Shown here piece after piece: positions 10,681-60,290 of a stretch of DNA of 64,000 nucleotides (the first letter of the stretch is position 1; each line of letters begins with the position of its first letter). Source of the stretch: the human T2T-CHM13v2.0 reference genome, Homo sapiens; NCBI RefSeq assembly GCF_009914755.1, contig NC_060931.1, one strand, 5' to 3'. The position numbers and the translations under genes were made by a program. The notes beneath the pieces were generated by a model. It did not search any database, had not been told where the DNA came from, and saw only the letters and a list, made by a program, of their open reading frames with translations.

Positions 10681-11011
10681 TCCCTCCCTCCCTCCCTCCC
10701 TTCCTTCCTTTTTTTTTTTTTTTTTAAGACAGAGTCTCACTCTGTCGCCCAGGCTGGAGTGCAATGGTGCGATCTTAGCTCACTGCAACCTCTGCCTCCT
10801 GGCTTCAAGTGATTCTTCTGCCTCAGCCTCCTGAGTAGCTGGGATTACAGGGGCACACCACCACGCCCAGGTAATTTTTTTGTACTTTTAGTAGAGATGG
10901 GGTTTCGCCATGTTGGCCGGGTTGGTCTCAAACTCCCGACCTCAGATGATCCACCCTCCTTGGCCTCCCAAAGTGCTGAGGAGATTACAGGCGTGAGCCA
11001 CTGCACTGGGC
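10681..11011 (-). mobile_element. AluS (left member of a tandem pair) with CCCT/T tail
   Basis: Alu reverse consensus from 10727 to cactgcactgggc. Confidence 0.9.
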
Positions 11012-11384
<373 letters not shown>

Positions 11385-12129
11385 TGAAAGGAATAAGTTC
11401 ATCTGTGGGAACTCACCTGAGGACCTATGGCCTGAGATGGAGTGATCCAGGTTGCTGTGTCTGCTTTTCTGCTGATTTTCAGTGGGAAGCTTTATTCAGG
11501 TGCCTTGTTCACCATGATATCAGAATCTAAAATACATTTTAAAAGTAGTTATTTAGTTCATCTGTACTAGGTTGTATTCTAATTCCTAGAACGAGTCTAT
11601 TGTTCTGCTGTCACTCACTGAACTATTCTTTTGCTATTTATGTAGTGTTTTCTCATTTTAATTAAACAGATTTCATCTTTATTAGTCATACACAGCATTT
11701 TCATGTTTTGCCTGCCTATTATTCAAGATTAAATGAGTTATTTAGCAACCTTCCTTAGTAATTCTTTTGGAAAGGTAACATCTGTAAAAACTTAGTCCCT
11801 TTCTTCTCACCCTATGGCCTTTTCCCTAGTCTTCCATTTTTCCTCCCCAAAGGCATCTCTATTAAAAATTTCTTATATGATGTTCCAGAGATATTTGGTG
11901 CATGCACTGGCATATACATATATTTATTCCTTTGTTTTCTGCTTTTGCATTAATAGCATTTATACCTTGCTTTTATCCCTTACTATATTTTGGCAGTCAT
12001 TCTGTGTCACTACAATAGCATTGCTCATCTTAAAACAACTGCGCATTCCATCAGATTTATATACTAAAGTTTATCTTATTTATTTTAAAATGTCATTTAG
12101 TAGATATCATTGTTTAAAATTTTAATGAG

Positions 12130-14050
12130 AAACTTCTGCTTCTGGAAAGAGGGAGATGTACTTTTCCCTACTGCTCCCAGTAAGTGCAACTAAAACACTG
12201 GCCGTTATACAGTAGCATGGCTCACCTGTCACCGAGACTCCTCTAGATCTTGTTGCTGCTGAGTATCCTACCTGCCAGCGATGGAGATTGACTCTGAGGC
12301 TCCACCATGGTATTATCCCTTGAGGAGACCAAACAGCTGCTTGGCAGGAAGTTAATTACCCAAGAAGGACAGCGATTCATCTTGTACAGGATTGATACAT
12401 ATTCCAAGGTTGTGTCTTCCTTGCCTGCCTGAAAGGCCTCAGCAAGCACGGCGGCCACAAACAACCCTTGAAAATGTCTATTGCAGGAAGCCCAGAAAGG
12501 AAGCACCAAGTTGGTTTAAGGGACTGTTCTTGGGGTTGTAGGGGAGAGGAGATAAAAGGAAGCCAAGATCTGAGATCCCAGAAGATCTTAATACTGACTC
12601 AAGACTCTCTTGAAAGATGTAAACTCTGATAGAGGGTATGGATAATATGTTTGATCCTTTCTAGGGCTTAAGCCAAGACCCTATCAAGCAAGTAAGTGGG
12701 AGATTGTGCTTATAAACAGCTCTTTTGAAGTAAGACAGATGTTCTCCTTGCTTCTCAGAATATTTTAGGCCAAAGCATTTTGTGGGCATAAATTAGCCTA
12801 ATATCAGTGTCAATGCTGTATTTCAGCTTACTCGTGAAGACCTGGTCTTTGTGCTGTAAGCAATTAAGAAAGACAGAATTCTTAAGTGTATTTCAAGGAA
12901 ATGTAAAAACAAAGTGTTCAATGCACACTTATGTATATATATTATGATGTTTATAACAAAAGTGTGAAAACACACATGGGAAAGATTGAAACTTACTTTG
13001 GGGTAGTGGTTTTCTGGGCAGGCAGAAAGAGAAATGTGTCTATGTGTGTTACTACTTATTTCTGAAATAAAATAACAGTATCTGAGAAAAACAAAACAAA
13101 AAAAACACTGGCCATTATATATAAAACAGACCTAAGAAGACTCTGAAAGGTGAAAAGAAAAAGGCAGAGTGGCTAAGGATATTGGGACTCAAGAAACAAC
13201 AACGTGATGATGAGTTCCCTGGATTTTCCTGTTGCCTGAAGTAATCCAGACTTGGAGCTGAAAACACTGGCAACCAGGAAATGCCAGTGGGCACAGACCA
13301 GAAAGAAGCCCAGTAAAAGCCTGATCTCTCCCTAGCCAAAGGCTCAAGAAGGAGAGAGCTTAACACAAAAGAAGATTTGTAAGCCATCAACTGTCCACTC
13401 TAGCCAAACACCATGGAAGAAACTGTGTCCCACCCCTCCCCTTGCCAGGAAGAGCTGAGTGGGGAGCCTAGACTTACACCCTTTCTGTCTGAAAATGCTC
13501 CAACTCCCACCCTTGCTGGGGTGATGTCAGAGATGACCACATAGGGAGCCATGATTTTCATCCCTGCTGGCCAGGAATGAACTTCATTCTCTGTGGTGTC
13601 CGGAGACCATGTGGGAATCCTGGATTTCCTTCTTCACCCAGCCTGATGTTGGAGCAAACCTGATGGAGAGTCCAGACTATCACCCTGAGGCCAAGTGGTA
13701 ACAAGGCCACCTGCACTTGTGGCAGCAGTAGAGACCACATGGGGAACTGGAAGTCCCAACCCAGCGGTAACAAGGAGCCCCGCCCACCCTTGGTGGATGA
13801 GTAAATGCCGAGTGGAGAACCTGGACTTCTGTCTCTATTGTAATGAGGCTGGAGCAGCATCAGAGAAAGTCAGCAAAAACAAAAGGTTTAAATAAGAGTC
13901 AGAGTCTTATAACAATATGAAATTTCAGTAGAATATCAGTTAGTATACCAAGAACCAGGAAGATCTCAACTGAGTGAAAAAAAGACAATCAGTAGATGCC
14001 AATACCAAGATAATAGAGATTTTGGAATTACTTGAAAAAGATTTTAAAGT
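12130..14050 (+). mobile_element. Ancient L1M 5' region (L1M4/L1MD-like), interrupted at 12212-13101
   Basis: acttctgcttctgg...aagtgcaactaaaacactgg | ...ataaaacagacctaagaagactctgaaagg...; reads continuously once the insert is removed. Confidence 0.55.
12212..13101 (+). pseudogene. L1-mediated retro-insertion (retrocopy or orphan transduction) of an unidentified transcript
   Basis: 20-bp TSD (12192-12211 and 13102-13121, 18/20 identical), AATAAA at 13066-13071, A-rich tail at 13087-13101. Confidence 0.8.
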
Positions 14051-56264: not shown

Positions 56265-56711
56265 ATTTTATTTTTATTTGACAAATAATTGTATATATAG
56301 GGTACCATGTGATGTTTTGATGTATGTTTACAATGTGGAAAGATTAAATCAGGCTAACCGTCATCTCATACACTTAACATTTTTTTTGTGGTGAATCACT
56401 TAAAATCTCCTTTAGGAATTTTGAAACATACAATGCATTATTATTTATTGTAGTCACCAACTGTGCAATAGATCACTAAAGCTTATTCCTCCTGTCTAAC
56501 TGAAAATTTGTACCCTTTGATCAACAGCTCCTCTTGCCCCCTCCCCCCGGCTCTGGTAACCATCATTCTACTCTCTGTTTCTATGAGTTCAACTTTTTTA
56601 GATTCCACGTGTAGATGGCATCGTACAATATTTGTCTTTTTGTTCCTGGCTTATTTTGCTTAGCACTGTCCTTTAGGGTCATCCATGTTGTTGCAAACCA
56701 GGATTTTATTC
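56265..56711 (-). mobile_element. L1MA-type 3' end (host of the L1PA3 structure)
   Basis: gattaaatcaggctaac...catccatgttgttgcaaaccaggattttattc. Confidence 0.8.
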
Positions 56712-60157
<3,446 letters not shown>

Positions 60158-60290
60158 GAATCCACTTTCTTAATATCACTAACTCACTAATGAGGGCAGA
60201 GCCCTCATGGTACCTCTTAAAGGTCTCACCTCAAACACTGTTGCATTGTTGATTAAGTTGCAACACATGAGCTTTGAGACACAATAACAG
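60158..60290 (-). mobile_element. Partial MST/MLT1A-type LTR
   Basis: atgagggcagagccctcatg...cctcttaaaggtctcacctc...acactgttgcattg; begins part-way through the LTR. Confidence 0.7.

What the first reader, a model, noticed from the sequence alone, without database searches (positions are those of the whole stretch)
12192..13121. Cryptic 890-bp retro-insertion of an unidentified polyadenylated transcript
Seen: the hallmarks of target-primed reverse transcription around sequence that is not itself a young retroelement. There is a 20-bp TSD (AAAACACTGGCCgTTATAcA / AAAACACTGGCCaTTATAtA) and an L1-endonuclease-like site (CT|AAAA). AATAAA lies 15 nt before an A-rich tail, and the host L1M reads through once the insert is removed. 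The cargo looks mosaic. About 12212-12480 resembles a decayed ERVL integrase region. The middle looks unique, and the last ~200 nt resemble an ancient L1ME 3' end that supplies the poly(A) site. There is no useful ORF. Inference: a 5'-truncated retrocopy of a lncRNA or 3'UTR, or an orphan L1 3' transduction. It would record a germline-expressed locus elsewhere in the genome. Repeat masking would split it into unrelated old fragments and hide the event.
Basis: partly seen in the sequence, partly recalled or inferred. Interest (0 to 1): 0.7.

Follow-up and report, generated by a model that had tools for sequence, protein, structure and literature searches.

The report
Retrotransposed chromosome-3 fragment inside DNAH11 intron
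An 874-base stretch in an intron of DNAH11 is a 94.6%-identical copy of a stretch of chromosome 3, likely pasted in through an RNA by LINE-1 machinery around the ape-monkey split, and it holds the first exon of a predicted antisense RNA: a clean but ordinary case of a known process.

Summary
Window 12213-13086 matches one other locus, C3:45204939-45205812 (minus strand), at 47 differences in 874 with no gaps, so no intron was lost. The source has no A-tail or target-site duplication and its old repeats run on across both junctions. The chr7 copy has an 18-20 bp duplication, a non-templated tail 15 nt after AATAAA, and splits an old L1 5' end that is continuous in 16 of 19 paralogues. Divergence (about 2.9% per copy) places the event near the ape/Old World monkey split. 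No young L1 or SVA lies within 100 kb upstream of the source, and that region lacks the strand skew of long-term germline transcription that DNAH11 shows. Best reading: an orphan 3' transduction whose driver L1 has been lost (0.55); rival: a retrocopy of a weak non-coding Pol II RNA (0.38). The insert carries exon 1 and the splice donor of predicted antisense lncRNA LOC105375183, and its tail, read antisense, forms the top-scoring acceptor of 4243 on that strand in a crude model. Known class, new member, modest interest.

The parts
12103..12191 (+). Left piece of the host repeat, the first ~90 nt of an ancient L1 5' end
   Evidence: Paralogues align from 12103-12131 onward; adjacent to the right piece in 16 of 19 paralogues
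12192..12211 (+). Left target-site duplication (18 bp to 12209, or 20 bp to 12211); both differences from the right copy are on this side by comparison with paralogues
12210..12212 (+). 1-3 junction bases matching neither source nor right duplication; the source just upstream of the junction resembles the end of the duplication (GGCC..TATA)
12213..13086 (+). Copied segment, 874 nt, equal to C3:45205812-45204939 (minus strand), 47 differences, no gaps
12213..12450 (+). Decayed ERV-L pol fragment (integrase N-terminal part); at the source and in paralogues it continues upstream across the junction
12226..12286 (-). Exon 1 of predicted lncRNA LOC105375183 with donor CAG|GTGAGC (source: GAG|GTGAGC)
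   Evidence: Hub annotation (predicted model)
12451..12959 (+). Middle part with no paralogue found except the source
12960..13086 (+). Old L1 3'-UTR-like piece (L1ME-type by recall), cut about 80 nt before its end
   Evidence: 1 of 10 loci
12997..13081 (-). Potential 85-nt antisense exon: tail-derived acceptor at 13081 and inherited donor at 12997 (predicted only)
13066..13071 (+). AATAAA, intact also at the source (C3:45204959)
13087..13101 (+). Non-templated A-rich tail, decayed into AAAAC units
13102..13121 (+). Right target-site duplication
13102..14050 (+). Right piece of the host ancient L1 5' end (67-78% identity to paralogues; 5 of 19 paralogue loci hold L1 ORF2-like sequence in their flanks)

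Best explanation
The 874-nt segment is a gapless 94.6% copy of a chr3 stretch with a new A-tail and a target-site duplication, likely inserted by LINE-1 target-primed reverse transcription as an orphan 3' transduction from an L1 that has likely since been lost from the chr3 locus. Steps: (1, inferred) an active L1 upstream on the minus strand read through its own weak poly(A) signal; (2, shown) the RNA ended 15 nt after an AATAAA inside an old L1 3' piece and gained a tail; (3, shown footprint, inferred agent) the chr7 site was cut at CT|AAAA about 90 nt inside an ancient L1 5' end and duplicated; (4, shown) copying stopped after 874 nt, inside an ERV-L fragment, before any driver sequence; (5, inferred) this happened near the ape/Old World monkey split, the copy was retained and the driver was not; (6, predicted model) an antisense RNA now uses a splice donor carried in by the insert. 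Confidence that it is an L1-machinery insertion from this source is about 0.97; the number given is for the whole, driver included.
For: One high-identity match among 4 candidates scored; junctions show tail and duplication only at chr7; paralogues cross both breakpoints (host 16 of 19; ERV-L 9 of 16 cross the 5' junction). No intron loss. No coding-strand skew upstream of the source, S = -0.016 (95% CI -0.047 to 0.009), against +0.083 (0.051 to 0.116) in DNAH11 introns, which fits a short-lived driver better than a standing germline gene. 18 AATAAA lie on that strand between the nearest CpG-island gene and the source segment, against unspliced read-through from it. Precedent: a DMD insertion first published as a retroposed non-coding gene and then as an orphan transduction from a non-reference L1 (titles and table row seen in PMC4859970); 48 orphan transductions in 1,019 genomes (PMC12350158 passages).
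Against: No driver is visible: in C3:45196001-45306000 only old L1 scraps (67-71% identity for those over 100 nt) were found and no SVA hexamer run, so the key step rests on absence. No sibling transductions were found (the search is stated to be a lower bound). The skew test is crude, is confounded by replication and old repeats, and would miss a weak or young transcript. chr3 annotation and expression were not seen. Polymorphic processed pseudogenes (292, 216 mono-exonic) outnumber orphans (48) in PMC12350158.
Confidence: 0.55

Rival explanations
1. A host Pol II non-coding RNA (terminal exon of an unannotated lncRNA, an LTR-driven RNA, or spliced read-through from the gene 36 kb upstream) was mobilised in trans by L1 and truncated inside its last exon.
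For: Intact AATAAA at the source, and an 8.5-kb stretch without AATAAA upstream; a strong acceptor at C3:45208795 in the crude model; an LTR-like element in the same orientation about 17 kb upstream (read by eye; family recalled); a CpG-island gene on the same strand at C3:45241491-45242462 (TMEM158 by recall). No L1 needs to be postulated.
Against: No transcription-type skew; no exon junction in the copy; the sequence after the cleavage site is only 42.5% G+T over 40 nt; the AATAAA-free gap is not shown to exceed chance; three paper searches listed nothing on such an RNA.
Confidence: 0.38
2. Orphan transduction driven by an SVA-like or other non-autonomous element, or by the AluS-type copy 140 nt upstream of the 5' junction.
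For: The Alu is in the same orientation; SVA 3' transductions are longer than L1 ones (PMC12350158).
Against: No SVA hexamer run in 110 kb; the age is at or before the recalled origin of SVA; an Alu Pol III RNA would stop at T-runs within the segment and would not use AATAAA (established knowledge).
Confidence: 0.04
3. DNA-level duplication (repair-templated insertion or small segmental duplication), or chr7 being the parent.
For: Gapless, intron-free match and short similarity at the 5' junction.
Against: Non-templated tail exactly 15 nt after AATAAA, a target-site duplication, no shared flank, and old repeats continuous only at chr3.
Confidence: 0.03

Closest known systems
Orphan 3' transduction (Awano 2010 / Solyom 2012 DMD case, seen as titles and a table row in PMC4859970; class defined in PMC12350158 passages)
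   Same: Unique sequence, poly(A) tail, duplication, no retroelement in the insert, source element absent from the reference
   Different: Old, apparently long retained; 874 nt against 212 nt; the driver cannot be shown in this genome
Trans-mobilisation of genomic DNA (Ejima and Yang 2003; title seen in the reference list of PMC4929541, content recalled)
   Same: Unspliced genomic segment ending at a cryptic poly(A) signal, no L1 beside the source
   Different: Here the source is not known to lie inside a gene and carries no coding exon
Processed pseudogene / retrocopy with antisense exonisation (Baertsch 2008, PMC2584115 passages, types Ib and III)
   Same: A retroposed piece supplies splice sites in the opposite orientation to a new transcript
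   Different: No mRNA parent, no intron loss; the polypyrimidine tract would come from the tail, as in antisense Alu exons (recalled)

Membership tests
L1-machinery (TPRT) insertion | Target-site duplication of 4-25 bp | tested here: met
   18-20 bp; range from PMC4862182 passage
L1-machinery (TPRT) insertion | Non-templated 3' A-tail after a poly(A) signal | tested here: met
L1-machinery (TPRT) insertion | Endonuclease-type site | tested here: met
   TTTT/AG on the bottom strand, a one-base variant of TTTT/AA; similar variants are tabulated in PMC4859970
L1-machinery (TPRT) insertion | Empty site with one copy of the duplication | tested here: inconclusive
   Shown in 16 of 19 paralogous repeats; no orthologous primate genome was available
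Orphan 3' transduction | Insert holds no young retroelement | tested here: met
Orphan 3' transduction | Full-length source L1 or SVA upstream on the same strand | tested here: not met
   None in 100 kb upstream in this genome; a lost polymorphic element cannot be tested, so membership is not filed as proven
Orphan 3' transduction | Source lies outside annotated exons (operational definition in PMC12350158) | not testable with these tools
   No chr3 annotation was available
Processed pseudogene / lncRNA retrocopy | Intron loss relative to the parent | tested here: not met
   874 of 874 columns without gaps; truncation within a last exon would look the same
Processed pseudogene / lncRNA retrocopy | Parent is a germline-expressed transcript | tested here: inconclusive
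   No strand skew; no expression data
Non-autonomous repeat family (single consensus) | Many copies of the whole unit | tested here: not met
   2 full-length matches among 4 scored; 2 of 2 for the 3' part; no Rfam match
ERV-L pol fragment (first 240 nt) | Collinear with RNase H, integrase, dUTPase order | tested here: met
   Aligns to L037 at E 1e-23; L037 hits PF00075, PF00665 (below cut-off) and PF00692; 1 of 5 paralogues scanned gave such hits

The most novel reading that the evidence does not exclude
A single orphan transduction of intergenic junk seeded a lineage-specific antisense gene inside DNAH11: the insert brought the donor of exon 1 of LOC105375183 (one later base change moved it towards consensus), and its poly(A) tail, read antisense, built a new acceptor that opens an 85-nt or 856-nt exon, so the event is traceable base by base from source to spliced RNA.
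Probability: 0.2. Interest if true: 0.55.

Novelty: new member of a known kind. Interest (0 to 1): 0.3.

Why it matters
It is a dated, source-resolved example of sequence moved by L1 machinery that repeat masking and mRNA-based retrocopy catalogues would likely miss, because it has no young element and no known mRNA parent. It is a ready phylogenetic marker near the ape/monkey split and a test case for telling lost-driver transductions from non-coding retrocopies. It also adds a sense AATAAA and antisense splice sites to an intron of a ciliary-disease gene; an effect on DNAH11 is unlikely, as the copy lost its downstream element and the intron has 6 other sense AATAAA. The 94.6% paralogue on chr3 may matter for short-read mapping of the predicted exon.

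Tried and rejected
Pfam on the insert and source frames: no hit above cut-off in 9 frames, none in 6 frames of L003/L004; PDB search of one paralogue frame gave nothing significant; Pfam on 15 frames of 5 host paralogues found no L1 family, so the host's L1 identity rests on tblastn in 5 of 19 loci. A 10-kb upstream query returned only Alu matches and was uninformative. Searches for sibling copies with source flanks found none. Rfam: 0 matches. An excess of A/G over C/T differences (24 vs 11) is not significant (p = 0.09), so editing is not claimed. Middle part: no paralogue in 186 kb of fetched loci plus the window beyond one weak hit. Segmental duplication, reversed direction and Alu read-through were considered and rejected. 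Paper searches for LOC105375183 (0 papers), the chr3 interval (6 listed) and DNAH11 antisense RNA (2 listed) showed nothing on this event; only listings were read and no supplementary tables were seen, so catalogues of transductions or retrocopies may hold it.

Full report
Observation. 12192-12211 and 13102-13121 match at 18 of 20 positions. The window holds 59 pairs of that quality at 100-3000 nt, mostly in Alu and simple repeats, so the pair alone proves little. Anchored at the tail, the best match in the 3 kb upstream is 17 of 18, against at most 15 of 18 in 300 shuffles.

Source. A search of the own genome with 12212-13086 scored 4 candidates: itself, C3:45204939-45205812 on the minus strand at 95%, and two short 76-77% matches. 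The alignment is gapless, 47 differences in 874. It begins at 12213 and ends at 13086, that is, between the two duplication copies and directly before the tail. At the source the sequence after the last shared base is not A-rich and there is no duplication. The tail is therefore non-templated, and chr7 is the daughter. Flanks of the source have no other close copy.

Anatomy. The first ~240 nt are an ERV-L pol fragment: 14 of 16 paralogue loci align to it, 9 of them across the 5' junction into sequence that only the source has. One of five paralogues scanned shows RNase H, a sub-threshold integrase core and dUTPase in that order; the insert itself is too decayed for Pfam. The middle has no paralogue found but the source. 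The last ~125 nt align to 1 of 10 loci picked by a motif that lies downstream of the cleavage site at the source, at the same spacing, and that locus has an A-run where the source has AATAAA. This weakly supports an old L1 3' piece whose internal A-run became a poly(A) signal; the name L1ME is recalled. The host is a repeat with 39 other matches listed at 67-78%. In 16 of 19 paralogues the left flank abuts the right flank with one copy of the duplicated stretch. The host starts near 12103 and runs to about 14050, and 5 of 19 paralogue loci hold L1 ORF2-like sequence, which fits an ancient L1 5' end.

Age. Raw difference is 5.4% (95% CI 4.0-7.1), K2P 5.7%, about 2.9% per copy. Of 13 sites covered by several paralogues, 8 changed in the chr7 copy, 4 in the source and 1 is tied. 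Neutral branch lengths to hominoids are 2.68% from the Old World monkey ancestor and 4.23% from the New World monkey ancestor (bioRxiv 10.1101/036434, Results part 1 read). The event falls near the first split and after the second; 25-30 million years is the recalled date of that split.

Driver. A young L1 of the window, used as DNA and protein probe over C3:45196001-45306000, finds only old fragments, the nearest on the opposite strand 14 kb upstream, and no SVA hexamer run. A CpG-island ORF on the source's strand lies 36 kb upstream (TMEM158 by recall), with 18 AATAAA in between. Strand skew, a mark of long germline transcription (established knowledge), is +0.083 in DNAH11 introns but -0.016 over the 34 kb upstream of the source. 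This leans against a standing germline gene and towards a transient driver, such as an L1 that was polymorphic and never fixed. The test is crude and blind to weak or young RNAs, and the driver is absent by hypothesis, so the split is 0.55 to 0.38. The same ambiguity is on record for a DMD insertion (titles and table row in PMC4859970). In 1,019 genomes 48 orphan transductions and 292 processed pseudogenes were counted, sorted by whether the source is an annotated exon (PMC12350158 passages); that look-up could not be made here.

Consequences at chr7. The hub's annotation puts exon 1 of predicted lncRNA LOC105375183 at 12226-12286 on the minus strand, inside the insert. Its three junctions in the window have canonical GT/AG ends. 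The donor CAG|GTGAGC ranks 27 of 3214 minus-strand GT sites in a matrix trained on 20 DNAH11 donors. The source has GAG|GTGAGC, and the chr7 base is the derived one (0 paralogues share it, 9 share the source base, 3 differ); the score gain is small, 7.8 to 8.4. Read antisense, the tail and the cleavage site give an acceptor at 13081 that ranks 1 of 4243 minus-strand AG sites (14.7; source equivalent 6.4). An inherited donor at 12997 would close an 85-nt exon. Against this: the model does not include that exon, the second-best acceptor lies 61 nt away in the host repeat, the matrix is crude, and no reads were seen. Antisense exonisation of retrocopies is described (PMC2584115 passages).

Comparison and novelty. 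It works like an orphan 3' transduction or trans-mobilised genomic segment. It meets every tested hallmark of an L1-machinery insertion, fails the visible-driver feature of transductions and the intron-loss feature of processed pseudogenes, and is filed only as a new member of the general class. Searches for the lncRNA name, the chr3 interval and DNAH11 antisense RNA listed nothing on this event; subscription papers and supplementary catalogues were not seen. Interest 0.3.

Noticed in passing
C3:45205474 (window equivalent 12550-12555): The source has a second AATAAA 515 nt before the one used; the chr7 copy differs there. A present-day source RNA might end earlier. Which state is older could not be told.
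   Followed up: partly
L007:5830-7000 (C3 about 45221830-45223000), minus strand: Solo LTR-like element with a TATA box, same orientation as the source RNA, interrupted by two Alus; MER39-like by recall. A candidate promoter for the rival explanation.
   Followed up: no
C3:45196001-45204900: Skew of -0.091 (CI -0.141 to -0.043) on the minus strand, that is coding-like on the plus strand, the strand on which the source's own copies of the antisense donors lie. Could be a plus-strand transcript or a replication effect.
   Followed up: no
window 13400-13850: The host L1 5' region holds several diverged GC-rich repeat units at about 70-80 nt spacing (D3, D17, D20); it lies upstream of the antisense lncRNA start and could supply its promoter.
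   Followed up: no
window 56675-60167: 5'-truncated young L1 on the plus strand with long ORF2 pieces and an intact 3' end; used as probe.
   Followed up: partly
window 10706-11326: Two minus-strand Alus head to tail directly after exon 11417-11526 of the predicted lncRNA.
   Followed up: no
window about -3783 (L053): An ATTAAA lies on the minus strand next to the annotated 3' end (-3769) of LOC105375183, but just beyond it rather than before it by my coordinate conversion.
   Followed up: partly
DNAH11 donors at window 36282 and 52445: Two of the 20 annotated donors are GC-type.
   Followed up: no
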